A stretch of DNA of 43,553 nt, taken from sequence record OR992644.1. One strand, written 5' to 3'. The translations under genes were made by a program, and so were the position numbers. The notes below the pieces were generated by a model that was not told the origin of the DNA, ran no database searches, and worked only from the letters and a program-made list of their open reading frames with translations. Shown here piece by piece: positions 3,158 through 38,217 of the stretch; position 1 is the first letter of the stretch, and each line of letters begins with the position of its first letter. Source of the DNA: Escherichia phage EP-B-K_E2.

Positions 3158-3445
3158 CTAACTATAATAGTTCGCTATTAGGTCGTCAACCTGTTTAAAC
3201 GAACCAACGACAAAAACATTTGCACCGCGTTTACGCATCCGCTCATGCTCACGTAACTGGTGCGGGTCAGGCTTCGTGTTTTCGTCTTTCTTAACCTCGA
3301 CGAACCAGACGATGCCGCCGGGGAGAATTACCAGCAGGTCAGGGGCGCCGGAGCGCCCCTCGTACGAAAGTTTACGAACGAGGCCGCCAATGGCCTCGAA
3401 TTGCTCTTTTGCGTATTTCTGTACGCGGCCCTCTTTAGTCGCCAT
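3158..3445 (-). CDS. VRR-NUC domain nuclease (PD-(D/E)XK)
   Basis: GAPDLLVILPGG...VEVK motif typical of VRR-NUC. Confidence 0.7.
   Translation of the reverse strand: MATKEGRVQKYAKEQFEAIGGLVRKLSYEGRSGAPDLLVILPGGIVWFVEVKKDENTKPDPHQLREHERMRKRGANVFVVGSFKQVDDLIANYYS
3161..3189 (-). promoter_or_regulatory. sigma70-like promoter TTGACG-N17-TATAGT with AATAG-N4-CTATT dyad
   Basis: Read on minus strand; same architecture as 7070-7098 and 9383-9411. Confidence 0.6.
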
Positions 3446-3941
3446 GGTTGCAAAACTCTCCGTGCAGTTTTGCCCTAAATTCTCTCAGCGATTCGTCTGC
3501 TTCATTTAGGTTCTGGAAATACCCAATCTGGTGGCGTGTACCTTTAAAACCAACGCGGGCACACCAAGCATTATGGTGCTTACTCCAGTTAACCCCTTTC
3601 ACCCCGCTGGTGTTTGTAACTGGGGTCTTGCGGTTATGGTTCTGTTGAAATTCATCCGCAAGCCGTAGGTTACAAATCCGATTATCGTCCCGTATGCCGT
3701 TAATATGGTCTATTTGCTTAGTTGGCATCTCTCCGTACACCCACCACCACGCCAGCCTGTGTGCGCGGTAATACACCCTATTCCATCCTAACAATATGTA
3801 CCCTTTACGGTCCTTGTATGTAACAACATCTCCGGGTTTCGCGGTCTGGCATCTGTGCTTGACCCATTTAAATATCCCGGTATCTGGGTCGTATGACAGA
3901 AAATCTTTTATATCGTCACTTGGTGCTTTCATAATACACAC
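3435..3941 (-). CDS. HNH homing-type endonuclease with AP2-like DNA-binding domain
   Basis: HRLAWWWVYGEMPTKQIDHINGIRDDNRICNLRL HNH motif; C-terminal GVKGVNW...YFQNLNEA AP2-like. Confidence 0.65.
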   Translation of the reverse strand: MCIMKAPSDDIKDFLSYDPDTGIFKWVKHRCQTAKPGDVVTYKDRKGYILLGWNRVYYRAHRLAWWWVYGEMPTKQIDHINGIRDDNRICNLRLADEFQQNHNRKTPVTNTSGVKGVNWSKHHNAWCARVGFKGTRHQIGYFQNLNEADESLREFRAKLHGEFCNHGD

Positions 3942-12445: not shown

Positions 12446-12843
12446 GTATACATTGCGAATAATGGGAAATCAAACATAATCGCACCTATTGACATTATGA
12501 AAATCTTCGTTTAAGGTGCTTCTATATCTTAGTTACTTTGATTCCTGTTCACCTTGTAAGAATGTTTAACCCGTGCGTCAAGCAAAGGGTTAAACACAGG
12601 CTTACTGAACACGAGAATTATCGTAACTTTCCTTCCTAAGTATCTCCGGTTGCCCTGGGCAAGCTCTATTCTCACCGGCAGCATATCTCTTAAGTATCTG
12701 ATTTTCTTAATGTGCCGTAGATTCGCAACCGTAAAAATGTAACGATTATCGGGCAGGCTTAAGGCCTGCCCTTTAGTTACCAAGTAATAAGAATAAAGGC
12801 ACAACCTTCCCTAAAGAATCACAACGGCAACGTAACTATTCTC

Positions 12844-12872
12844 TTGCACACCCCAACATAATAGGTTACTAT
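12844..12872 (+). promoter_or_regulatory. sigma70-like promoter TTGCAC-N17-TACTAT with AATAG-N4-CTATT dyad
   Basis: Nearly identical 35-bp element to 25844-25872 and 35034-35062 (opposite strand). Confidence 0.6.
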
Positions 12873-12907
12873 TCACTTATCGAAACGAGACAGAGGAGCG
12901 AGGGGTT

Positions 12908-13093
12908 ATGTTTAAGAAGGGTCAGTTGGTTAAAGTAAACGATTACGGTTATTACGGTGCTATCGAACGAATTTCAAATAAGGTTAACGGGATGTACTAC
13001 ATCCGTACACCTAACCAGCGTTTCGGTAAGTGGTGCTTCGGGGACGAGATAAAACTCATCGGCAACAATTTTAAATTCAAAGGGGTGAAGTGA
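12908..13093 (+). CDS. hypothetical protein
   Basis: 61 aa, SD gaggagcgagggg upstream. Confidence 0.45.
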   Translation: MFKKGQLVKVNDYGYYGAIERISNKVNGMYYIRTPNQRFGKWCFGDEIKLIGNNFKFKGVK

Positions 13094-15828: not shown

Positions 15829-16137
15829 TTGGATAAATTTACTGAAACAGTGACAGGCTGGCTTCTGGCCGCCGCACTAGCCGGCGGGGTCATCGGGCTA
15901 CGACAACATAAGTCCGTTATTTCTGGCCCCATCGACGGCTTCTGCTTTATCGCAACTGGCTTTACTTGCGCCGTATTTGGTGCACCTCTCGCAGCGCAAT
16001 GGTTCGGCATTACTGGGGAGCGTGAAATTGCTGGCCTGGGATTCATCATTGCCATTCTCTGGATGCCTATCTATTCCCGCCTCTCCGGTATCGTCGCCGG
16101 AGAATACATCTCACGTCGAGGAGGCCCGGATGAATGA
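15829..16137 (+). CDS. putative holin (three predicted TM segments, TTG start)
   Basis: Three hydrophobic segments, charged C-terminus, directly upstream of endolysin. Confidence 0.55.
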   Translation: MDKFTETVTGWLLAAALAGGVIGLRQHKSVISGPIDGFCFIATGFTCAVFGAPLAAQWFGITGEREIAGLGFIIAILWMPIYSRLSGIVAGEYISRRGGPDE

Positions 16138-16402
16138 GCTATTCTGGTTCGGCGGTATGCTGGCAATCGGGGGCACATCGCTGTTTAACGTGTACCATCC
16201 CAGTGTGGATGACGGATTATTCGGGCGTGTACTCTATATCCTGACTGCTATTGTCTGCGCTGCCGGGTGTATCCACCTGTTACAAGGCAGCATGTCACCA
16301 ACGCTGCCTGAGACATTAATCACATTAGTTGCGCTGCGTCAGATTCGTCAGGCGTGGCTGTCATACGGAGGACATAAGCGTGTCTCGAAATATTTCAGAT
16401 AA
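16130..16402 (+). CDS. small membrane protein (second holin or antiholin-like)
   Basis: 90 aa, two hydrophobic segments, overlaps holin and endolysin. Confidence 0.4.
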   Translation: MNELFWFGGMLAIGGTSLFNVYHPSVDDGLFGRVLYILTAIVCAAGCIHLLQGSMSPTLPETLITLVALRQIRQAWLSYGGHKRVSKYFR

Positions 16403-16868
16403 TGGGTTGCATTTTACTGCTGCGTTTGAGGGATTCCGCGGAACTGCGTATCGCGCGACACCGAATGAGAAGTACCTGACTATAGGCTACGGTCACTACG
16501 GGCCAGACGTAACACCAGGTAAGACCATCACACCGGGACAGGGCCTCCTGTTACTGAATCGTGATATGGCTAAGGCCGTAGCTGCGGTTGATGCAGCAGC
16601 ACACCATTCACTGACACAGGCACAGTTCGACGCTGTGTGTGACCTGGTCTATAACGCAGGTGCGGGCGTGATTTCGGCTACTATCGGAACCGGTAAGGCG
16701 CTGCGTTCTGGCGATATTGCGACGCTGCGTGCCAAGCTGGCGCTGTTCATCAACCAGAACGGCAAACCGTTACTTGGCCTGCGCCGCCGTACCGCAGGTC
16801 GTCTGGCGCTGTTCGATGGTAAACCGTGGCAGGAGGCGGAGGCTATCGGGCGCGCGGTGAAAGGTTGA
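16380..16868 (+). CDS. endolysin, phage lysozyme (GH24-like)
   Basis: GLHFTAAFEGFRGTAYRATPNEKYLTIGYGH lysozyme signature; GTG start with SD ggagg. Confidence 0.75.
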   Translation: MSRNISDNGLHFTAAFEGFRGTAYRATPNEKYLTIGYGHYGPDVTPGKTITPGQGLLLLNRDMAKAVAAVDAAAHHSLTQAQFDAVCDLVYNAGAGVISATIGTGKALRSGDIATLRAKLALFINQNGKPLLGLRRRTAGRLALFDGKPWQEAEAIGRAVKG

Positions 16869-19665: not shown

Positions 19666-19759
19666 GTACATCCAGCCCAATCCCCTTATATAATCCCTTT
19701 AGACGCGTAGGGCGCGTCTGGTGCGCTCTGATGGTCAGACGCATATGCAAGGGGATTCT

Positions 19760-20269
19760 ATGAAGCTGAAACTCAAGCAGCCATCGCCAGAGGTGGTGCA
19801 AGCTGCGCATGAAGAAGCTGTTAGCGCAAACCGTCGCCGTAAACGACCGCGCGGTAAACAGAGCCTTTATCAATCATCCCGTAATTCCGCTGCGCTGTGG
19901 GACCCGGACTATTGCGACGAATTGATTCGTTTCTTCGACCGCACGTCGTGGGAGCTTGTGCCTACGTCCAAAGGTGACGAACGCCCGCTGATTCAGGATA
20001 AACCGCCATCACTGGCACGCTTCGCCTTACACATCGGCGTCACTATCCCGATTATTAAGCTGTGGCTGCGCGAGATTCCCGCATTTGCAGAAGCCTGGGA
20101 GACGGCGCAGGCGCTGGAAGAGGCGTATTTCACTGAGACTGGCGCCGCGGGCATCTCCGCGACGTTCGCTGCCGCTAAGCTGGGGCTGAATAAGAAAGAT
20201 GAGCCTGAGAACGATAGCAGCACATCGCAGAACATCACAGTAGTGATAAAGAAAGATACTGGAGAGTAG
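19760..20269 (+). CDS. terminase small subunit
   Basis: Position immediately upstream of large terminase, basic N-terminus, size about 170 aa; SD aagggga. Confidence 0.55.
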   Translation: MKLKLKQPSPEVVQAAHEEAVSANRRRKRPRGKQSLYQSSRNSAALWDPDYCDELIRFFDRTSWELVPTSKGDERPLIQDKPPSLARFALHIGVTIPIIKLWLREIPAFAEAWETAQALEEAYFTETGAAGISATFAAAKLGLNKKDEPENDSSTSQNITVVIKKDTGE

Positions 20270-20327
20270 TAGACGGGCTAGATAAACGATGCTAGTATCA
20301 ACCCATCCATTGAAGTGGGTTGATACT

Positions 20328-21125
20328 ATGAATTACGAAAAGATATACGAAAGCTTTATATCTCGTTGCAGGTCGCTGCCACACCGGGGCTACGCCGAAA
20401 GACACCACATACTGCCGCGGTCCTTAGGCGGGGATGACTCCCCCGAGAATCTTATTGATTTATCCGCAAGAGAACATTTCTTCGCGCATCTCCTTCTGGC
20501 AAAAATCCACGGCGGCAACATGTGGGCCGCTCTGGCATACATGTCAAGAGGCGGCACTAAGTCAAGCAAACTACATAAATGCACATCCCGTCAGTATGAG
20601 TTTATAAAGCGTAAAGACGCTGAATGGCGTAGCTTGGCGTACCGTGGGGATAAAAACCCGTTCTACGGGAAAACGCATTCACCACAAGCCCTGGCGAAAA
20701 TGCGCAAACCTAGAGTCAATAAAGAGAGACTTTTTGGGCGGGCGGTGCCGGGTGTCGGGGCTATCATATCGTTTGTGCAGACATATAGACCCCGTGCGGT
20801 AGAAATAGATACTACGGTTAGAGACCGAATTGATAGTTGGTTCGCGGTGGACGAAGAACTGCGGCAGCTTAATGTATTCCTCGCCCGTAGCCAAGGGCAG
20901 AAAGCGCTCAATCGAGACCACCACGGCGAAAAGAACCCAAACTACGGCAATGGGAAAGCCATATCCGGCGAAAAGAACCCGATGTTCGGTAAGAAACACA
21001 GCGAAAGCACCAGGGCTAAAATTGCGGAGAAAATGAAACGCACTATGGTGTGCCCGCACTGCGGCAAAGAATCTAACATAGCAAACGCACATAGGTGGCA
21101 CTTTGACAACTGCAAACACAAATGA
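20328..21125 (+). CDS. HNH homing-type endonuclease with NUMOD3-like repeats
   Basis: HHILPRSLGGDDSPENLIDLSAREH HNH motif; repeated KNPxYGK motifs. Confidence 0.7.
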   Translation: MNYEKIYESFISRCRSLPHRGYAERHHILPRSLGGDDSPENLIDLSAREHFFAHLLLAKIHGGNMWAALAYMSRGGTKSSKLHKCTSRQYEFIKRKDAEWRSLAYRGDKNPFYGKTHSPQALAKMRKPRVNKERLFGRAVPGVGAIISFVQTYRPRAVEIDTTVRDRIDSWFAVDEELRQLNVFLARSQGQKALNRDHHGEKNPNYGNGKAISGEKNPMFGKKHSESTRAKIAEKMKRTMVCPHCGKESNIANAHRWHFDNCKHK

Positions 21126-22359
21126 GAAAGAGATGTTGCTTCTCCCGCACCAATACGAACTATTGGCTGATACCACGACAAAGATAATCGGGCTGTGTTC
21201 CGGATTCGGGGGCGGTAAAACGTACAGCGCCGCGCGTAAAGCGGTGCATCTGGCTCTTCTTAACCCAGGTGTAGACGGAATAATAACAGAGCCGACGTTT
21301 CCTCTGTTAGTGCAGGTTATGTTTCCAGAACTTATGGCGGCGCTGGACTTCTTCGGCGTCAAATACAAGTTCAACAAGGTTGAGTCTATTTTTTATTGCG
21401 ACATAAACGGGCAAACAACCCGTATTATTTGCGGAAGTATGGAGAACTATCAGCGACTTATCGGGATAAACGCCGCGTGGTGCGTGTGCGACGAGTTTGA
21501 TACCGCTAAGCAAGAAACCGCTTATGCCGCGTACATGAAGCTGCTAGGCCGCCTTCGTAGGGGTAATGTGCGCCAGTTGGTGATAGTGTCTACCCCTGAG
21601 GGTTTCAGGGCGATGTACCAGATATTCGTAACCGAAGCCGATGCCAGCAAACGGCTAATACGTGCGAAGACAACCGATAACTACCACTTACCAGCGGACT
21701 ACGTAGAGTCAATGCGCAGCCAGTACCCTGAGCAACTCATAAACGCCTATCTGAATGGCGAGTTCGTAAACCTTACATCTGGAGTTGTATATTATGGCTA
21801 TCAACGAGGTAAATGCGAATCCAACGAAACTATTAAACCGGGTGAACCTCTATACATTGGGCAGGATTTTAACGTCGGCAAAATGGCGTCGTGCGTTTAT
21901 GTAAAACGCGGTGCTGATTTTCATGCGGTAGCCGAGTTGGTCGACCTTTTTGATACCCCTGATGTAGTTCGCGTTATCAAGGAGCGGTGGGCCGGGCATC
22001 ACATAATTATGTACCCAGACGCCAGTGGTCGTAATCGTAAAAGCAACTCCGCTTCCACATCTGACATAGCTATCCTGGAGCAAGCAGGATTTGAGATTAG
22101 AGCTAAATCAAAAAATCCACCTGTGAAAGACCGTGTCGCCGCGAGTAACGCCGCGTTTGAAAAAGGTAGAGTCTTTATTAACTCGAAGGCTTGCCCTGCA
22201 ACGGCGCGAGGATTAGAGCAGCAAGCCTATGATAAAAACGGTGAGCCAGAGAAAAACGGCGTAATCGACCATATGGTTGACGCAGCTACATACTTGATCG
22301 CTTACGAGATGCCAGTAGCTAAACCTGTCATTAATATACCGGTTACTTTCGCGCTATAA
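21103..22359 (+). CDS. terminase large subunit
   Basis: Walker A-like GFGGGKTYSA, 418 aa, followed by portal. Confidence 0.8.
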   Translation: MTTANTNEKEMLLLPHQYELLADTTTKIIGLCSGFGGGKTYSAARKAVHLALLNPGVDGIITEPTFPLLVQVMFPELMAALDFFGVKYKFNKVESIFYCDINGQTTRIICGSMENYQRLIGINAAWCVCDEFDTAKQETAYAAYMKLLGRLRRGNVRQLVIVSTPEGFRAMYQIFVTEADASKRLIRAKTTDNYHLPADYVESMRSQYPEQLINAYLNGEFVNLTSGVVYYGYQRGKCESNETIKPGEPLYIGQDFNVGKMASCVYVKRGADFHAVAELVDLFDTPDVVRVIKERWAGHHIIMYPDASGRNRKSNSASTSDIAILEQAGFEIRAKSKNPPVKDRVAASNAAFEKGRVFINSKACPATARGLEQQAYDKNGEPEKNGVIDHMVDAATYLIAYEMPVAKPVINIPVTFAL

Positions 22360-25496: not shown

Positions 25497-25500
25497 TAGA

Positions 25501-25529
25501 AGGCCCTGAAAGGGCCTTATTTTTTTTTA
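25501..25529 (+). terminator. rho-independent terminator
   Basis: aggccct-gaa-agggcct followed by 9 T. Confidence 0.7.
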
Positions 25530-25808
25530 TACAAATACGAATCCATCGCTGGTAGAGGTGTATCGGGTGGCGCCGTTTTTCGTTTCAGGCCAACAGATAT
25601 ATGAGCGACCATGATACTCTATCCACCAAAGTTCTACATCGGCACCTTCATTAGGTCGCGTCAACCACCCGTGGTGCAGCCAATACTTGCGCCCTATTTT
25701 AAATATGCCTTCTTCGCCTGAAGGCCTGCAACAGGCGACGCACTCTACTTGAATACCATCAACCTGCACACATGTCATATGTAAATTACTGTTTGAGTAT
25801 TTAGCCAT
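25527..25808 (-). CDS. reverse-oriented orphan gene, Cys-rich hypothetical protein
   Basis: 93-aa ORF with own promoter (25844-25872) and SD aaggaa; opposite to flanking structural genes. Confidence 0.55.
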   Translation of the reverse strand: MAKYSNSNLHMTCVQVDGIQVECVACCRPSGEEGIFKIGRKYWLHHGWLTRPNEGADVELWWIEYHGRSYICWPETKNGATRYTSTSDGFVFV

Positions 25809-25843: not shown

Positions 25844-25872
25844 ATAGTACCCTATTATGCTGGTGTGTGCAA
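25844..25872 (-). promoter_or_regulatory. sigma70-like promoter TTGCAC-N17-TACTAT with dyad (minus strand)
   Basis: Near-identical to 12844-12872 element. Confidence 0.6.
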
Positions 25873-25926
25873 ACTATTTATTTACATATTCCAGTTATTC
25901 CGCTCAATTGTAAATGTTGGAATAAA

Positions 25927-25967
25927 CTATTCGAATAGTTGACTTTTCACTAAAAATGTGATAAGCT
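25927..25967 (+). promoter_or_regulatory. palindrome CTATTCGAATAG abutting a TTGACT -35 and extended -10-like TGaTAAGCT
   Basis: Perfect 12-bp palindrome at 25927-25938; promoter-like spacing 17. Confidence 0.45.
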
Positions 25968-26143
25968 CCACCTGAGCTTGTGAAGTATGAACAAGCGACC
26001 GCGGCGCGGGCAGGTAACGGAGCGGGACGTAAGTCATGAGTGTAGTTACGCTGACGCGTTCGGAAGGGCCATACTCTATTGCTTGTGTAAAAAGTAACTG
26101 GTTTACTGAGATTACGCCGTTTCTATGTTTAAATGATAAGGAC

Positions 26144-26171
26144 TAGCGCCCCGCTTTAAGGCGGGGCTTTA
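26144..26171 (+). promoter_or_regulatory. GC-rich hairpin in leader upstream of spanin genes (possible attenuator)
   Basis: gccccgc-tttaag-gcggggc followed by tttactt. Confidence 0.4.
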
Positions 26172-26191
26172 CTTATCGAGAAAGGAGAAAC

Positions 26192-26578
26192 ATGAATCTT
26201 AAAGCAACTGTCGTAGCAGGAGCATGTTTCATCATCCTGGCTTACGCGCACGGCATCTACCAGTATCGCAGCGGCTGGAACGAAGGCCGGGTGAATCTCG
26301 TTTCGCAGCAACATCAGAAAGCACAGGCGGAGCTAGCGAAGAAAACACAACGGCAGCAGCAGGATGAATCAAAGGCCGCAGCCGCCGACAACGAAGGCAA
26401 GACGAAATCAGAGGTGATTACCCGTGAAGTCGTTAAGTACATTAAAACGCCTGGCCGCAGCGTGTGCACTTTCGACGATGCTCGCGTCCTGCTCAAGTCC
26501 CGCGCCGTCGCCAACGCCAATTCCATCCCCGGATACGACAATGATGCAGCCTCCGTGCAAACTGGCGGCGCCAAGTAG
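26192..26578 (+). CDS. i-spanin (Rz-like)
   Basis: N-terminal TM helix, Gln/Ala/Lys-rich periplasmic region, overlapping lipoprotein gene in +1 frame. Confidence 0.6.
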   Translation: MNLKATVVAGACFIILAYAHGIYQYRSGWNEGRVNLVSQQHQKAQAELAKKTQRQQQDESKAAAADNEGKTKSEVITREVVKYIKTPGRSVCTFDDARVLLKSRAVANANSIPGYDNDAASVQTGGAK

Positions 26579-26690
26579 CGACGCCGACGAGGATTTGGCT
26601 ATCGACGTTCAGAACGCCGAATGTGCACGGCAACTGAGACTGAAAGTGTTCATGCTGCAGGACTGGGTACGGAATGTGATGGCGGAATAA
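26424..26690 (+). CDS. o-spanin (Rz1-like outer-membrane lipoprotein), GTG start
   Basis: Signal peptide with lipobox LASC, Pro-rich mature region, overlapped architecture with i-spanin. Confidence 0.6.
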   Translation: MKSLSTLKRLAAACALSTMLASCSSPAPSPTPIPSPDTTMMQPPCKLAAPSSDADEDLAIDVQNAECARQLRLKVFMLQDWVRNVMAE

Positions 26691-26691
26691 G

Positions 26692-26715
26692 AAAAGCCCC
26701 TTATGGGGCTTTGTT
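26692..26715. terminator. bidirectional rho-independent terminator
   Basis: aagcccc-ttat-ggggctt flanked by A-run upstream and T-rich downstream. Confidence 0.55.
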
Positions 26716-26718
26716 GCG

Positions 26719-26883
26719 TTAAAAGTTTCCGTATACAAAATTACGTTTTCTGGTTCTCAATGGGACCCATGCAGGTATGTTATCATTGTGGACGAAATGT
26801 TCCTCATAGAAGAAAACCTTTTTGGTATTGCTGGACCAATGGTCCATTTTTAAAATTCTTCTTGCTTTTGCGTTTCTGGTCAT
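26719..26883 (-). CDS. reverse-oriented small ORF (54 aa, not in ORF track)
   Basis: Strong SD acaggaggg 7 nt upstream of ATG; convergent with spanins; shares bidirectional terminator. Confidence 0.4.
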   Translation of the reverse strand: MTRNAKARRILKMDHWSSNTKKVFFYEEHFVHNDNIPAWVPLRTRKRNFVYGNF

Positions 26884-26910
26884 TCTTATGCCCTCCTGTT
26901 TAAGTTACCT

Positions 26911-26932
26911 CCTATAATAGCACCCTATTATA
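26911..26932. promoter_or_regulatory. AATAG-N4-CTATT dyad element with TATAAT/TATTAT boxes (strand ambiguous)
   Basis: ctataatagcaccctattatat matches the dyad family at 25844 and 35034. Confidence 0.45.
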
Positions 26933-27033
26933 TTGGTGTCTATAGGGGTGGTTGCCTTCTGATGTGGAATAATTTATTCTTGACATGTAAATCCGGGTGG
27001 CCCGGGTTCCAACGTCCAGGGGACATACTGACT

Positions 27034-29545: not shown

Positions 29546-29725
29546 ATGGCAGATAATTACGTAATCCGCGAAAAGTACACCCACGTTGATGTTGTTGACG
29601 GTCAGGTGATGCCGGTCCGCGGTGTTGTAGAGGCGGATGAACTGGTTACAACCCAACCGGACAACGAAGAAGCGCACAACAACGGCGGTGGTGCTAAGCG
29701 TCGTCGCCGTAAGTCAGAGGAATAA
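29546..29725 (+). CDS. hypothetical small protein (59 aa, not in ORF track)
   Basis: SD aaggaaag upstream; basic C-terminus. Confidence 0.35.
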   Translation: MADNYVIREKYTHVDVVDGQVMPVRGVVEADELVTTQPDNEEAHNNGGGAKRRRRKSEE

Positions 29726-35033: not shown

Positions 35034-35062
35034 ATAGTACCCTATTATATTGGGGTACGCAA
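35034..35062 (-). promoter_or_regulatory. sigma70-like promoter TTGCGT-N17-TACTAT with dyad (minus strand)
   Basis: Near-identical to 12844-12872 and 25844-25872 elements. Confidence 0.6.
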
Positions 35063-35951: not shown

Positions 35952-38217
35952 TATCGCTAGCTTGATAGTACGAGTATCCGCAACCGGCGTCGATAAAGTC
36001 ACATCACAACTGAACGGGCTTACTAAAGCCGCAGGCGCTGCGGCTGCCGCCGTTGTCAGCCTGGAAACCGCTAAGCAGGTGTTCAGTGCGCTGGTGGACT
36101 CCCAGCGAAACTTCGATAAGCTGAACTCCGGCCTAATCACAATGACCGGGAGTGCTGAGAACGCGGCTAAGGCTTTCAGCGTCCTGCAACAGTTCGCAAA
36201 AGAAACCCCGTATGGCCTCAATCAGGCGGTCGAGGGCTTCACTAAACTTGTAGCTCTTGGTCTTAACCCCAGCAAAGAGGCGTTAATCTCCTACGGCAAC
36301 ACCGCCGCTGCGATGGGCAAAGACCTTAATCAGATGATTGAGGCTGTGGCGGACGCCAGTACATTTGAGTTTGAGCGACTGAAAGAGTTTGGTATCAAGT
36401 CGTCACAGCAGGCGGATACAGTGTCGTTCACGTTCCGCGGTGTTACCACCACGGTTAAGAAGAACTCCGAAGAGATTCAGAAATACCTTCTGAATATTGG
36501 TAACACTGATTTCGCCGGAGCGATGGAAACGCGTTCGAAAACCCTTGACGGGCAGTTATCCAGCCTCGCGGACTCCTTTGACGGCCTTGTACTTGCGGTG
36601 GCGCAATCAGGTTTCGGCGACGCCGTAGGTGAGCAAGCTGCGAGGGCGGAAGATGCTATCACGGCGCTTACTGATGCCATCGCGTCTAATGAGATAGCAG
36701 CCACGCTCCAGGATTGGGTAACACTGTTCAATGAATCGTTCAAGTTTATCTCTGATGCCTTGAACGACCTGGCATACGATACCGAGGACAAATCCGTGGA
36801 TATGTCCGACTCGCTGGGGGGTATACCGGACGCTATCCGTGAGTGGTTGCCCGACATTCAGCAGACATTCCACGAGGTTATTGCGTGGTTCCAGCGCATT
36901 GACGATTATGCCGTAGCGTTAGGCCAGACCCTTGCCGACGTGTTTGACCCGAGCAAAACGGCGGCGCTTACATTTAAAAACCTTACCGCAGAGGCTGATG
37001 CCGCATACGATGCCAGCATAAAACGGGCGGAGGCCGAGTCGCAGGCCATTACCAACAGGTCTAAGCAGCGTAAGAAAGAAATTGAGGAACAACGCAAGCA
37101 GTATGATGAGCGCAAGAAGCAAGAGATTGACTTAGCCAGCCTTGTTAATAAAAAGGGCGGAACTGGTGGAACGGGGGAAACCGACGATAAAGCAGCAAAA
37201 GCCGCCGCCAAGAAAGCAGAGCAATTGCGCAAACAGGCGCAAGATTACCTCGACACTTTGGCCCGTCAGAACAACGACGAGTTAAAAGCTATTGACGCGC
37301 AGGAACAGCAGAAACTGGCTAAAGCGAAAGAGTTCTACAGCCAGGGCGCACTGTCACTGAAAGAATACGAACAAGCTAAAACAGCTATCGTCCTCGAAGC
37401 CGGACAAAAACGGCAAGATGAACTGGATAAACGCCAGAAAGAAGCCCTGGAAAAGCAGCAGAAAGGCGACGACTTCATGGCTCAGATTATGGGCCAGAAC
37501 GCTACTGAGCTTGAGCTTCTCGACATCCAGGAACAGCAGAAACTGGCGGTAGCGGATAAGTACCGCGAGCAGGGTTTGATTAGCGAGAAGCAGTATCAGG
37601 CCGCGCTTAACGCCATCAACGAGCAATACGCCACCAAGCGTGCTGATGCAACGGCAACGGCCTTTGGTAACATGGCCTCAAACATCGGGTCTGCGTTGGG
37701 TGAGGCTTCTGGCGCGTACAAGGCATTCGCTATCGTACAGGCCACCATAGCCACGTACACCGCGGCTATCGAGGCGTACAAGTCCACGGCGGCTATCCCC
37801 ATAGTCGGCCCGTTCCTGGCCCCTGTAGCCGCTGCCGCTGCCGTTGGTGCAGGTATGGCTCAGGTTTCCGCTATCAGGTCAGCACGTGAACAAGGTGGTC
37901 AGTTATCCGCGGGGCAGGCTTCTACTATAGCAGAACGCGGAAAACCAGAAGTTATCATGCCTGCCGGGGCATCGCGTGTGCGCACCGCACAGCAGATGAA
38001 AGAAATTATGGGCCAAAACGGGTCTTCTTCCGGCCCGTCCAATGTTACTATCGTAAACAACACGAGTTCTCAAATCGGCAACGTATCCACCGAGCAAGAT
38101 GATGAAGGCCGTTTGCGTATCATCATCGAGGAGCAAGTGGCAGCCTCTTTGCAGAACAGCAACAGTAAGATTAGCAAGGCCCGCAAGGCCACAAGAAATG
38201 CGCCGGGGTTTAAATAA
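35944..38217 (+). CDS. tail tape measure protein
   Basis: 758 aa, Ala/Gln-rich coiled coil, internal repeats, position. Confidence 0.8.
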   Translation: MADIASLIVRVSATGVDKVTSQLNGLTKAAGAAAAAVVSLETAKQVFSALVDSQRNFDKLNSGLITMTGSAENAAKAFSVLQQFAKETPYGLNQAVEGFTKLVALGLNPSKEALISYGNTAAAMGKDLNQMIEAVADASTFEFERLKEFGIKSSQQADTVSFTFRGVTTTVKKNSEEIQKYLLNIGNTDFAGAMETRSKTLDGQLSSLADSFDGLVLAVAQSGFGDAVGEQAARAEDAITALTDAIASNEIAATLQDWVTLFNESFKFISDALNDLAYDTEDKSVDMSDSLGGIPDAIREWLPDIQQTFHEVIAWFQRIDDYAVALGQTLADVFDPSKTAALTFKNLTAEADAAYDASIKRAEAESQAITNRSKQRKKEIEEQRKQYDERKKQEIDLASLVNKKGGTGGTGETDDKAAKAAAKKAEQLRKQAQDYLDTLARQNNDELKAIDAQEQQKLAKAKEFYSQGALSLKEYEQAKTAIVLEAGQKRQDELDKRQKEALEKQQKGDDFMAQIMGQNATELELLDIQEQQKLAVADKYREQGLISEKQYQAALNAINEQYATKRADATATAFGNMASNIGSALGEASGAYKAFAIVQATIATYTAAIEAYKSTAAIPIVGPFLAPVAAAAAVGAGMAQVSAIRSAREQGGQLSAGQASTIAERGKPEVIMPAGASRVRTAQQMKEIMGQNGSSSGPSNVTIVNNTSSQIGNVSTEQDDEGRLRIIIEEQVAASLQNSNSKISKARKATRNAPGFK
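37300..37547 (+). repeat. in-frame direct repeat inside tape measure gene
   Basis: Exact 20-mer caggaacagcagaaactggc at 37300 and 37528 (228 bp apart); protein repeat IDAQEQQKLA / LDIQEQQKLA. Confidence 0.7.

What the first reader, a model, noticed from the sequence alone, without database searches (positions are those of the whole stretch)
26192..26690. Overlapped spanin pair located 10 kb away from holin and endolysin
The i-spanin-like ORF (N-terminal TM, periplasmic coiled region) overlaps in the +1 frame a lipoprotein ORF with signal peptide, lipobox LASC and Pro-rich body that extends past the first gene's stop (overlapped Rz/Rz1 architecture). Holin and endolysin sit at 15829-16868, so the lysis functions are split between two distant transcription units, with the spanins inside the head module behind a long structured leader.
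Basis: partly seen in the sequence, partly recalled or inferred. Interest (0 to 1): 0.45.

Follow-up and report, generated by a model that had tools for sequence, protein, structure and literature searches.

The report
Known Jersey-type overlapped spanin gene pair
This is the ordinary, already catalogued outer-membrane-disrupting "spanin" gene pair of Kagunavirus/Jerseyvirus phages, sitting where it always sits in this phage group (between head genes, about 9 kb from holin and endolysin). The only apparently undescribed part is the conserved, folded RNA leader in front of it.

Summary
ORF 26192-26578 (128 aa, N-terminal TM helix) and the +1-frame ORF 26424-26690 (88 aa, GTG start, lipobox LASC, Cys23) overlap by 155 nt. 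They match PHROG Rz-like spanin families. All 58 related loci keep the signal peptide, lipobox, two periplasmic Cys and a non-Asp +2 residue.

The window is a Kagunavirus (Guernseyvirinae) genome. This is the "Jersey" overlapped spanin family of Kongari et al. 2018 (155-bp overlap, o-spanin Cys45/Cys67). The Schulenberg genome announcement already notes that it is separate from holin/antiholin/endolysin. The main finding is therefore already known.

The "long structured leader" also holds. A promoter-like TTGACT-17-TAAGCT (25939-25967) precedes about 218 nt of non-coding sequence. This stretch is 95-98% identical across genera while flanking genes are 60-90% identical. Its helices show compensatory changes (92.8% of cells paired versus 34-50% in slid controls). 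It ends in a GC hairpin just before the spanin ribosome-binding site.

A paralogous copy of its 5' domain heads the early rightward operon, which includes holin and endolysin, in the relatives Schulenburg and Golestan. No copy was found there in this window. Rfam has no match. The leader's function is unknown; my guesses are a stabilising/translation-tuning leader or an antitermination-type leader.

The parts
26192..26578 (+). i-spanin (Rz-like), 128 aa; N-terminal TM helix around residues 5-23, one periplasmic Cys (C92)
   Evidence: ORF. phrog_2536 at 2.5e-54. The 19-residue Kyte-Doolittle mean is 1.72 starting at residue 5. One periplasmic Cys in 58 of 58 loci. Single-sequence AF2 gives helix 3-84 and helix 94-107, with low confidence after residue 60.
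26424..26690 (+). o-spanin (Rz1-like) outer-membrane lipoprotein precursor, 88 aa, GTG start, +1 frame; lipobox LASC, Cys23, Ser at +2, Cys45 and Cys67
   Evidence: ORF. phrog_1267 at 5.9e-18 and phrog_5672 at 5.7e-29. Lipobox conserved in 58 of 58 loci. Cys45/Cys67 and the 155-bp overlap match the Jersey family description in PMC6139136.
26184..26187 (+). GGAG Shine-Dalgarno of the i-spanin
   Evidence: Sequence; AAAGGRG is conserved in leader types A and B.
26411..26414 (+). GAGG Shine-Dalgarno of the o-spanin, inside the i-spanin ORF
   Evidence: Sequence.
25939..25967 (+). Sigma-70-like promoter of the spanin unit: TTGACT, 17 nt, TAAGCT. An upstream conserved block (TATTCCAGTTATTCC ... GGAATAAACTATTC) spans 25887-25932.
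   Evidence: Read from the sequence; conserved in leader types A, B and C. The same promoter heads the second RNA copy in Schulenburg and Golestan. The consensus scanner did not list it, so this is an inference.
25974..26191 (+). Conserved non-coding structured leader (about 218 nt from the predicted start site to the i-spanin ATG)
   Evidence: 95-98% identical to Jerseyvirus relatives, against 60-90% for the flanking genes. On alignment A2, 92.8% of cells are paired versus 34-50% in slid controls, with covariation score 0.268 versus at most 0.052. No Rfam match. The 36-aa ORF 26036-26146 is not conserved.
25976..25996 (+). 5' hairpin of the leader (GCUUGU / ACAAGC)
   Evidence: Single-sequence folds. 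The equivalent hairpin ACGCU/AGCGU occurs in type B. The hairpin is identical in the early-region copy of Schulenburg and Golestan.
25999..26063 (+). Long irregular hairpin topped by a GUAA (GNRA) tetraloop hairpin (26023-26038), followed by the invariant motif GGAAGGGCC (26062-26070)
   Evidence: Helices 3 and 5, with compensatory pairs at alignment columns 40/95, 58/74, 61/71 and 62/70. Covariance model R1 hits 25997-26084 at 106.8 bits.
26148..26167 (+). GC-rich terminator-like hairpin (GCCCCGC/GCGGGGC) followed by UUUACUUAUC, 16 nt before the SD
   Evidence: Terminator scan. Compensatory changes C-G to G-C and U-A at columns 190/201. The U-tract is not conserved in types B and C.
26171..26180 (+). 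3' strand ACUUAUCGAG, which can pair either with the leader 5' end (25977-25986) or with UGAUAAG (26134-26140)
   Evidence: Helix 2 is 99% paired with 2 compensated pairs. The alternative pairing appears in the MFE folds and was checked by eye after a 1-nt register shift. Only two lineages inform this.
26693..26712 (.). Bidirectional terminator-like hairpin directly after the o-spanin stop
   Evidence: A terminator is annotated at the same place in Ent1.
25500..25518 (+). Strong terminator-like hairpin plus T9 after the Hoc-like gene, separating the upstream head genes from the spanin unit
   Evidence: Terminators are annotated at the same place in Ent1, fBC-Eco01 and Schulenburg.
15829..16137 (+). 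Holin (TTG start), phrog_2359
16130..16402 (+). Second holin/antiholin (ATG 16130, SD GGAGG 16120-16124), phrog_2508
   Evidence: The Schulenburg record calls the pair holin/antiholin.
16380..16868 (+). Endolysin, Phage_lysozyme PF00959 (likely GTG start 16380 after GGAGGA; the mechanical ORF starts at 16329)

Best explanation
The two ORFs are a two-component spanin of the 'Jersey' overlapped family, in a Kagunavirus (Guernseyvirinae) genome.

The i-spanin is anchored in the inner membrane by its N-terminal helix and reaches into the periplasm as a largely helical rod. The o-spanin is made from a GTG inside the i-spanin gene in the +1 frame and exported. It is lipidated on Cys23 and sorted to the outer membrane, because residue +2 is Ser, not Asp. 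By analogy with lambda Rz/Rz1 and T4 PseT.3/PseT.2, the two bind through their C-termini and are covalently stabilised by intermolecular disulfides (one periplasmic Cys in the i-spanin, Cys45 and Cys67 in the o-spanin). They fuse or disrupt the outer membrane once holin and endolysin have removed the peptidoglycan.

In this phage group the pair is not in the lysis cassette. It sits in a conserved slot between the head-morphogenesis/Hoc-like genes and the scaffold/major-capsid genes. There it forms a compact unit of its own: a sigma-70-like promoter, a conserved folded leader of about 218 nt, the spanin genes, and a terminator.

Shown here: ORFs, frames, motifs, family membership, conservation, gene context, and conservation with covariation of the leader. 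Inferred: membrane topology, lipidation, complex formation, the lysis role, promoter and terminator activity, and any regulatory role of the leader.
For: - ORFs and frames.
- PHROG Rz-like spanin hits for both proteins.
- 94-96% nucleotide identity to Kagunavirus genomes whose homologues are annotated spanin/o-spanin.
- 58 of 58 loci keep the TM helix, signal peptide, lipobox and non-Asp +2 residue, and 57 of 58 were called with two periplasmic Cys; 42 of 58 have a 155-nt overlap.
- AF2 gives a long N-terminal helix.
- Kongari et al. 2018 (PMC6139136) list K1G, K1H, K1ind1-3, Jersey and others as the 27-member 'Jersey' overlapped family, with a 155-bp overlap and conserved o-spanin Cys45/Cys67. 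These are exactly the positions in the 88-aa product here.
- PMC6763661 and PMC7203180 record the separation from holin/endolysin.
- The slot is conserved in Jerseyvirus, phiEap-2, TS6 and Dhillonvirus HK578. In Klebsiella phage VLCpiS13d, endolysin, holin and spanin follow head morphogenesis after three reverse-strand ORFs, but no scaffold or capsid gene appears in the next 3 kb.
- Terminator-like hairpins bracket the unit.
- Leader conservation and covariation.
Against: - Nothing contradicts the spanin assignment.
- There are no functional data for this family in the sources read; Kongari's Jersey analysis is bioinformatic.
- Pfam has no hit for either protein.
- The AF2 model is low-confidence beyond residue 60.
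- The consensus scanner did not call the promoter.
- The GC hairpin could stop most transcripts before the spanins, so how the genes are actually expressed is unknown.
- The extreme conservation of leader type A could partly reflect recent recombinational spread rather than constraint.
Confidence: 0.9

Rival explanations
1. The o-spanin is the short 48-aa ATG-start product (MMQPPCK...), as annotated in many GenBank and RefSeq records. On this view the upstream +1-frame stretch with the 'lipobox' is chance.
For: Schulenburg, Golestan RefSeq, fEg-Eco06, phiWAO78-1, skrot and fBC-Eco01 all annotate a 126-147-nt o-spanin. PHROG phrog_5672 is a 47-position profile built from such fragments.
Against: The short product has no signal peptide or lipobox, so it cannot be an outer-membrane lipoprotein. 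The upstream part is an open frame with a start codon at the homologous place (GTG in 42 loci, ATG in 16), a K/R-rich n-region, a hydrophobic core and a lipobox Cys in 58 of 58 loci, despite sequence divergence. phrog_1267 matches residues 8-87. Kongari et al. use the long form (155-bp overlap, Cys45/Cys67).
Confidence: 0.03
2. The conserved region upstream is not a spanin leader. It is an independent small RNA gene (promoter, about 200-nt RNA, terminator) that merely lies next to the spanins; the spanins are expressed some other way.
For: It has its own sigma-70-like promoter and a terminator-like GC hairpin with UUUACUU. It is more conserved than the spanin genes and is uncoupled from their divergence: L044, L003 and L055 have divergent spanins but a 96-97% identical leader. 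A paralogous copy with the same promoter sits in the early region of Schulenburg and Golestan, away from any spanin gene.
Against: The U-tract after the hairpin is not conserved in types B and C. The strand between the hairpin and the SD takes part in conserved, compensated pairing with the RNA's 5' end, which ties the structure to the ribosome-binding region. An upstream terminator at 25500-25518 and a reverse-strand ORF leave no other obvious promoter for the spanins. In every Guernseyvirinae locus examined the element directly abuts the spanin start codon.
Confidence: 0.2
3. The leader region is protein-coding: the 36-aa ORF 26036-26146 annotated as 'hypothetical protein' in several relatives.
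For: The ORF is present in the window and is annotated in phiWAO78-1, fEg-Eco06, fBC-Eco01 and Schulenburg.
Against: The window's ATG is a minority variant: the consensus is CTG, with 5 of 41 type-A sequences differing from the consensus at that column. Single-nucleotide indels occur inside the ORF in L004, L016, L026 and L027. It is absent from types B and C. Near-total identity at all codon positions, together with compensatory stem changes, fits RNA rather than protein.
Confidence: 0.02
4. The high identity of the leader across genera reflects recent horizontal exchange of a mosaic module, not functional constraint. On this view the 'structure' is incidental.
For: Two sharply different leader types (about 60% identity) coexist within Jerseyvirus. 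Type A is shared between Kagunavirus and some Jerseyvirus genomes at 95-98%. Guernseyvirinae are mosaic, with homing endonucleases.
Against: Types A, B and C keep the same architecture with compensatory changes. Within type A, the variants L012 and L033 change both sides of stems. The boundary of conservation falls at the spanin ATG in the four GenBank relatives compared by sliding identity, L001, L002, L003 and L005.
Confidence: 0.15

Closest known systems
'Jersey' overlapped two-component spanin family (Kongari et al. 2018, PMC6139136): Jersey, SETP3, SE2, K1G, K1H, K1ind1-3 and others
   Same: Same family. The 128-aa i-spanin and ~87-88-aa o-spanin have a +1-frame overlap of 155 bp and o-spanin Cys45/Cys67. 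i-spanin identity to Kagunavirus relatives is 89-97%.
   Different: Nothing essential. The window's o-spanin ends ...DWVRNVMAE instead of ...DYVRNILE, next to a window-specific insertion.
Phage lambda Rz/Rz1
   Same: A type II inner-membrane protein plus a small Pro-rich outer-membrane lipoprotein, encoded in overlapping frames. Periplasmic cysteines are available for intermolecular disulfides. The inferred role is outer-membrane disruption as the last step of lysis (established knowledge; PMC6139136).
   Different: In lambda, Rz1 is fully embedded in Rz and the pair is the last part of the S-R-Rz/Rz1 cassette on the pR' late transcript. Here the o-spanin extends 112 nt past the i-spanin stop, and the pair is 9.3 kb from holin/endolysin. 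There is no detectable Pfam-level similarity.
Phage T4 pseT.3/pseT.2 spanins
   Same: [quoted passage not shown] 8 legend).
   Different: The T4 genes have the 'separated' architecture and belong to a different sequence family.
Escherichia phage Schulenberg/Schulenburg (MK931438; PMC6763661) and VB_EcoS-Golestan (PMC7203180)
   Same: Same genus and same layout. [quoted passage not shown]
   Different: These two genomes carry a second copy of the leader's promoter and 5' RNA domain in the early region; the window has one. Their records annotate the truncated o-spanin.
Promoter-proximal leader/terminator modules of lambdoid phages: lambda pR'-6S RNA-tR' ahead of S, R, Rz/Rz1, and HK022 putL/putR RNAs. 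This is a resemblance from my own knowledge and was not tested.
   Same: A sigma-70-type promoter is followed at once by stem-loops and then a terminator-like hairpin about 200 nt downstream, ahead of lysis and morphogenesis genes. Two copies sit at the starts of two rightward units in Schulenburg and Golestan.
   Different: There is no sequence similarity, no identified Q/N-like factor, and no evidence of antitermination. The U-tract is poorly conserved.

Membership tests
Two-component spanin (i-spanin + o-spanin) | i-spanin: a single N-terminal transmembrane domain (type II, N-in/C-out) | tested here: met
   Residues 5-23 (ATVVAGACFIILAYAHGIY) have a mean Kyte-Doolittle value of 1.72. AF2 places a helix from residue 3. 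The TM helix is present in all 58 loci. Topology itself is inferred.
Two-component spanin (i-spanin + o-spanin) | i-spanin periplasmic domain is mostly alpha-helical / coiled coil with a hinge | tested here: inconclusive
   Single-sequence AF2 gives helix 3-84 and helix 94-107, but pLDDT is below 55 after residue 60. Kongari et al. predict two helices joined by a linker with beta-strands for this subfamily.
Two-component spanin (i-spanin + o-spanin) | o-spanin: SPase II signal peptide with a lipobox Cys | tested here: met
   MKSLSTLKRLAAACALSTMLAS|C; a lipobox-type motif is present in 58 of 58 loci. No dedicated LipoP/SignalP tool was available; a regular expression and conservation were used instead.
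Two-component spanin (i-spanin + o-spanin) | Outer-membrane sorting: no Asp at position +2 of the mature lipoprotein | tested here: met
   +2 is Ser in the window. Across the 58 loci it is S, Q, N, A, G, R or P, and never D.
Two-component spanin (i-spanin + o-spanin) | Small, Pro-rich mature o-spanin and periplasmic Cys in both subunits | tested here: met
   The mature o-spanin is 66 aa with 9 Pro and 2 Cys; the i-spanin has 1 periplasmic Cys. The Cys counts hold in 57 of 58 (o-spanin) and 58 of 58 (i-spanin) loci.
Two-component spanin (i-spanin + o-spanin) | Adjacent, overlapping or embedded gene architecture | tested here: met
   Overlapped, +1 frame, 155 nt.
Two-component spanin (i-spanin + o-spanin) | Required for outer-membrane disruption (spherical-cell arrest of mutants in Mg2+; complements lambda Rz/Rz1) | not testable with these tools
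   Needs genetics and microscopy.
Two-component spanin (i-spanin + o-spanin) | C-terminal interaction between the i- and o-spanin periplasmic domains | not tested
   No complex prediction or experiment was done.
'Jersey' overlapped spanin family (Kongari 2018) | Sequence membership, 155-bp overlap, o-spanin Cys at positions 45 and 67 | tested here: met
   phrog_2536 at 2.5e-54 and phrog_1267 at 5.9e-18. i-spanin identity to Kagunavirus relatives is 89-97%, and listed members K1H and K1G carry the same leader-spanin locus. Overlap is 155 nt and Cys45/Cys67 were counted in the 88-aa product.
Canonical contiguous lysis cassette (holin-endolysin-spanin) | Spanin genes directly adjacent to holin/endolysin | tested here: not met
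   9,324 nt and at least 15 ORFs lie between them. No lipobox/TM pair follows the endolysin.
Known RNA families (Rfam 15), for the leader | A covariance-model match at or near the gathering score | tested here: not met
   Only sub-threshold chance hits were returned: ncS025 at 21 bits on the minus strand and Trp_leader at 25 bits elsewhere. No tRNA or tmRNA was found.
Processive-antitermination leader (lambda Q/qut-tR', HK022 put, nut) | Promoter-proximal RNA or DNA element that makes RNA polymerase read through downstream terminators | not testable with these tools
   Only the layout is compatible. No factor, no read-through data and no sequence similarity were established.

The most novel reading that the evidence does not exclude
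The ~218-nt leader is a new family of promoter-proximal regulatory RNA in Guernseyvirinae. Its 5' domain (two stem-loops plus the GGAAGGGCC motif) is found with its own promoter both ahead of the spanin/late-structural genes and, in Schulenburg and Golestan, ahead of the early rightward operon that includes holin and endolysin. It would act in cis, either as a put/nut/Q-type antitermination signal or as a switch between two alternative pairings of the strand next to the ribosome-binding site. In those relatives it could carry polymerase through the terminator-like hairpins and so coordinate the two physically separated halves of the lysis system; in this window only the spanin unit carries it.
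Probability: 0.2. Interest if true: 0.55.

Novelty: already known. Interest (0 to 1): 0.2.

Why it matters
The spanin pair itself adds nothing new. It is a textbook member of a catalogued family in a well-sampled phage genus, and its separation from holin and endolysin has been remarked on in print.

Two practical points follow from this check.

First, most GenBank and RefSeq records of this phage group annotate a truncated o-spanin that lacks the signal peptide and lipobox. Annotation pipelines and PHROG phrog_5672 propagate this error. The GTG/ATG start 155 nt inside the i-spanin gene is the right one.

Second, the non-coding leader in front of the spanins is the most conserved stretch of the neighbourhood. 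It has covariation-supported structure, no Rfam family, and a paralogue at the head of the early rightward operon in some relatives. If it proves to be regulatory, it would be a rare case of dedicated RNA-level control of spanin or late-gene expression in a virulent siphophage group widely used for phage therapy and biocontrol.

Tried and rejected
- **Rfam.** Searches at E<=1 on the leader and on leader types B and C gave no credible family.
- **ARAGORN.** No tRNA or tmRNA in the window. The 'tRNA-Ser' annotated near the element in phage ER22 lies on the opposite strand over the Hoc-like gene's terminator, not in the leader.
- **Pfam.** No hit for either spanin.
- **IMG/VR scan with the 15-mer TATTCCAGTTATTCC.** It returned at least 120 mostly unrelated contigs (chance matches), so it was uninformative.
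- **Paper search for Guernseyvirinae and RNA terms.** The search was badly posed (min_terms 2) and returned irrelevant papers. The 'Jerseyvirinae' search found no paper discussing the leader, and the Anany et al. proposal paper was not among the listed hits.
- **My first guess for the middle helix** (alignment columns 47-52 with 79-84) was mis-registered: only 65% of cells paired.
- **The extended terminal-hairpin alternative** scored 70% in the MAFFT register. It only works in type B after a 1-nt shift that I checked by eye, so the 'two alternative pairings' idea rests on thin evidence.
- **A shared regulatory motif upstream of the holin cassette.** None was found.
- **A second copy of the leader's 5' domain in the window.** None was found, even with filters off.
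- **PHROG search of the small ORFs in and near the window-specific insertion, and of the reverse ORF 25527-25808.** No hits.
Full report
**What is there.** The window contains ORF 26192-26578 (+, ATG, 128 aa) and, in the +1 frame, ORF 26424-26690 (+, GTG, 88 aa). They share 155 nt, and the second runs 112 nt past the first stop.

The first protein begins with a hydrophobic stretch at residues 5-23 (Kyte-Doolittle mean 1.72). A single-sequence AlphaFold model makes residues 3-84 one long helix and 94-107 a second; confidence is acceptable only for the first 60 residues.

The second protein starts MKSLSTLKRLAAACALSTMLAS-C, which is a basic n-region, a hydrophobic core and the lipobox LASC. Ser follows at +2, then a 66-residue mature part with nine prolines and two more cysteines. 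A GAGG lies 9 nt before the GTG and a GGAG lies 4 nt before the i-spanin ATG.

**More than chance.** I collected 57 further loci: GenBank Kagunavirus and Jerseyvirus records, phiEap-2, TS6 and 47 IMG/VR contigs. In all 58, the +1 frame carries the following:
- a start codon at the homologous place (GTG in 42, ATG in 16);
- a signal-like N-terminus and a lipobox-type motif (LSAC, LASC, LNGC, LSGC, ITGC and others);
- a non-Asp +2 residue, two periplasmic Cys (57 of 58 as called by the script) and a mature length of 64-72 residues (64-66 in 57 of 58).

All 58 i-spanins keep one periplasmic Cys. The signal peptides differ strongly between Kagunavirus and Jerseyvirus while their properties are kept. 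That is the signature of selection on a lipoprotein precursor.

**Identity.** The DNA is 94-96% identical to Kagunavirus genomes (Golestan, fEg-Eco06, phiWAO78-1, RP180 and others). PHROG assigns both proteins to 'Rz-like spanin' families: phrog_2536 at 2.5e-54, and phrog_1267 at 5.9e-18. Pfam has nothing.

Kongari et al. 2018 (PMC6139136) list Jersey, SETP3, SE2, K1G, K1H, K1ind1-3 and others as the 27-member 'Jersey' family, the largest in their overlapped class. They describe a 155-bp overlap and invariant o-spanin Cys45 and Cys67. Those are exactly the overlap and the cysteine positions of the 88-aa product here. The pair is therefore a member of a catalogued family.

**The split from holin and endolysin.** PHROG and Pfam confirm the other lysis genes:
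- a holin at 15829-16137;
- a second holin/antiholin at 16130-16402;
- a Phage_lysozyme endolysin ending at 16868, with a likely GTG start at 16380.

No TM/lipoprotein pair follows the endolysin. Between it and the spanins lie small ORFs, terminase small subunit, a homing endonuclease, terminase large subunit, portal, head morphogenesis and a Hoc-like protein. Scaffold and major head protein follow the spanins.

The same layout is annotated in Golestan (holins ORF66/67, endolysin ORF68, spanins ORF7/8; PMC7203180) and in Schulenburg. [quoted passage not shown] T4 is an older precedent for unlinked spanins. The arrangement is real but not new.

**The slot is old.** The position between head morphogenesis/Hoc-like and scaffold holds the spanins in Jerseyvirus, in phiEap-2 and TS6 and in Dhillonvirus HK578, where the spanin gene overlaps the end of the head-morphogenesis gene with no leader. 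In Klebsiella phage VLCpiS13d, whose i-spanin is a distant relative (32% identity), endolysin, holin and spanin lie together about 1.5 kb downstream of head morphogenesis, after three reverse-strand ORFs; no scaffold gene appears in the next 3 kb. One reading is that the spanins stayed in an ancestral lysis slot while holin and endolysin are elsewhere in Guernseyvirinae. This is an inference only.

**Transcription-unit question.**
- A strong terminator-like hairpin with a T9 run follows the Hoc-like gene (25500-25518).
- A variable reverse-strand ORF (25527-25808, no PHROG hit) comes next.
- A bidirectional terminator-like hairpin follows the o-spanin stop (26693-26712).
- Upstream of the spanins I read TTGACT, 17 nt, TAAGCT at 25939-25967. 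The consensus scanner missed it, but it is conserved in all leader types.

The pair therefore looks like a self-contained unit. There are no expression data.

**The leader.** Sliding identity against two Jerseyvirus and two Kagunavirus relatives shows 25880-26180 at 92-100%. Flanking coding sequence is 60-90% against the Jerseyviruses, and the first 100 nt of the i-spanin gene drop to 68%. About 210 phage records carry this 'type A' leader at 95-99%.

Other Jerseyviruses (Ent1, ER22, GRNsp50) have a 'type B' leader in the same Hoc-like-to-spanin interval (about 317 nt in those phages) but only about 60% identical. phiEap-2 and TS6 have a 'type C' leader.

The 36-aa ORF annotated here in several records is not conserved. 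The window's ATG (26036) is a minority C-to-A variant, and single-nucleotide indels occur inside the ORF.

On a 26-sequence alignment of types A and B, RNAalifold and explicit pair counting support four elements:
- a long hairpin (25999-26063) capped by a GUAA tetraloop hairpin;
- the GC hairpin 26148-26167;
- a closing helix between the RNA's 5' end (25977-25986) and the strand just 5' of the SD (26171-26180);
- nine pairs with changes on both sides.

Overall 92.8% of cells pair, against 34-50% when partners are slid, and the covariation score is 0.268 against at most 0.052. Caveats apply: most of the covariation comes from two lineages (A versus B), plus the type-A variants L012 and L033. 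The 5' hairpin (25976-25996) and an extended terminal stem (26134-26140 with 26171-26177) are alternatives to the closing helix. The same two 3'-strand substitutions are compensated in both partners. That is suggestive of a switch but thin. Rfam has no match.

**A second copy.** A covariance model of the 5' domain (R1) finds the window's element at 107 bits. It also finds a second hit at 35 bits (E about 1e-6) in Schulenburg at 37936-38024 and in Golestan at the equivalent place. These copies have the same TTGACT-17-TAAGCT promoter, an identical 5' hairpin, the same basal stem and a different apical part. They lie in the divergent early control region, upstream of the rightward operon that includes holin and endolysin.

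The window has no second R1 hit, even with filters off. Its equivalent region (12480-12910) does have an analogous layout: TTGACA, about 250 nt of non-coding sequence, and a GC hairpin followed by TTTAGTTACC. The element is thus a promoter-proximal RNA module, not something specific to spanins.

The layout recalls lambda pR'-6S-tR' ahead of S, R, Rz/Rz1, and HK022 putL/putR. That is a resemblance from my own knowledge, not a test.

**Most likely mechanism.** The proteins work as a standard two-component spanin (confidence 0.9). The leader most likely acts in cis on the spanin mRNA, through stability, translation initiation or read-through of the hairpin. An independent sRNA (0.2) and a purely mosaic, non-functional explanation (0.15) remain open.

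**Annotation point.** Most public records, including RefSeq Golestan and the Schulenburg record, annotate a 42-48-aa o-spanin starting at an internal ATG (MMQPPCK... in the Kagunavirus records) without signal or lipobox. PHROG phrog_5672 is built from such fragments. The long form is the correct one.

**Verdict.** The novelty of the finding as given is 'already known'. Interest is low (0.2), lifted slightly by the undescribed conserved leader.

Noticed in passing
window 25880-26191: The non-coding stretch before the i-spanin is the most conserved ~300 bp of the neighbourhood: 92-100% identical to four Kagunavirus and Jerseyvirus relatives, and 95-98% over 25980-26179. It has covariation-supported helices and no Rfam family. 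Three leader types (A, B, C) exist across Guernseyvirinae.
   Followed up: yes
L182 (Schulenburg MK931438) 37879-38030; L183 (Golestan) 1604-1750: A second, paralogous copy of the leader's promoter and 5' RNA domain (35 bits, E about 1e-6). It lies in the early control region, upstream of the rightward operon that includes holin and endolysin. It is absent from the window.
   Followed up: partly
window 12480-12910: The early rightward control region has an analogous layout: TTGACA at 12489, about 250 nt of non-coding sequence, the hairpin GGGCAGGC-TTAA-GGCCTGCCC followed by TTTAGTTACC (12751-12780), then a motif promoter and ATG 12909. This resembles the spanin leader's terminal hairpin and tail.
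   Followed up: no
window 26690-26945: An insertion of about 265 bp between the o-spanin stop and the scaffold promoter, absent from four close relatives. Its core has no match in the phage collection. It carries a minus-strand promoter-like site TAGACA-17-TATTAT (26942-26914), an orphan 54-aa ORF (26883-26719, minus strand) with no PHROG hit, and shares the 26693-26712 hairpin as its terminator. It looks like a small moron.
   Followed up: partly
window 26660-26690: The window's o-spanin C-terminus reads ...QDWVRNVMAE, whereas nearly all relatives end ...Q(D/E)Y(V/I)RNILE (a few end ...RNIME). The difference abuts the insertion.
   Followed up: no
window 12850-12866 (-), 25850-25866 (+), 26923-26939 (+), 35040-35056 (+): The 17-nt motif CCCTATTATNNTGGTGT occurs four times, against 0.1 expected. 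Read on the opposite strand, each copy lies just upstream of a gene transcribed away from it, so it is probably a class of promoters for divergent or moron genes. The same sequence recurs at other positions in related phages.
   Followed up: partly
window 25919-25944 and 26966-26985: The spanin-leader promoter and the scaffold-gene promoter both have GGAATAAnnTATTC just upstream of a TTGAC(T/A) -35 element, with TGTAAAT nearby. This may be a shared regulator site. A third match at 29719 is just an SD and start codon.
   Followed up: partly
window 26036: The window carries a C-to-A variant that breaks a G-C pair in the GUAA-tetraloop hairpin. It also creates the ATG of the spurious 36-aa ORF 26036-26146; the consensus of 41 type-A leaders is C.
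   Followed up: yes
GenBank/RefSeq relatives (L001, L002, L003, L004, L005, L181, L182): The o-spanin is systematically mis-annotated as a 42-48-aa ATG-start fragment lacking the signal peptide and lipobox. PHROG phrog_5672 (47 positions) reflects this truncation.
   Followed up: yes
L044 (IMGVR_UViG_3300045988_013393) and L059 (TS6): L044 combines a 97%-identical type-A leader with a divergent, TS6-like spanin pair: a 118-aa i-spanin, an ITGC lipobox and only 8-14 nt of overlap ('separated' architecture). The leader and the spanin genes therefore reassort independently.
   Followed up: partly
L057 (Klebsiella phage VLCpiS13d) 2338-3372; L056 (HK578) 3336-3665: In VLCpiS13d, endolysin, holin and spanin lie together downstream of head morphogenesis, after three reverse-strand ORFs. 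In HK578 the spanin gene overlaps the end of the head-morphogenesis gene with no leader.
   Followed up: partly
window 20289-21125: A homing-endonuclease ORF (phrog_655, 2e-59) sits between the terminase small subunit (19721-20269) and the terminase large subunit ORF (21103-22359).
   Followed up: no
L183 (Golestan) 1800-1830: A simple (CACT)n-type repeat, CACTCACTCACTCACTCACTCACTC, lies inside the early-region copy of the leader. It is shorter in Schulenburg.
   Followed up: no
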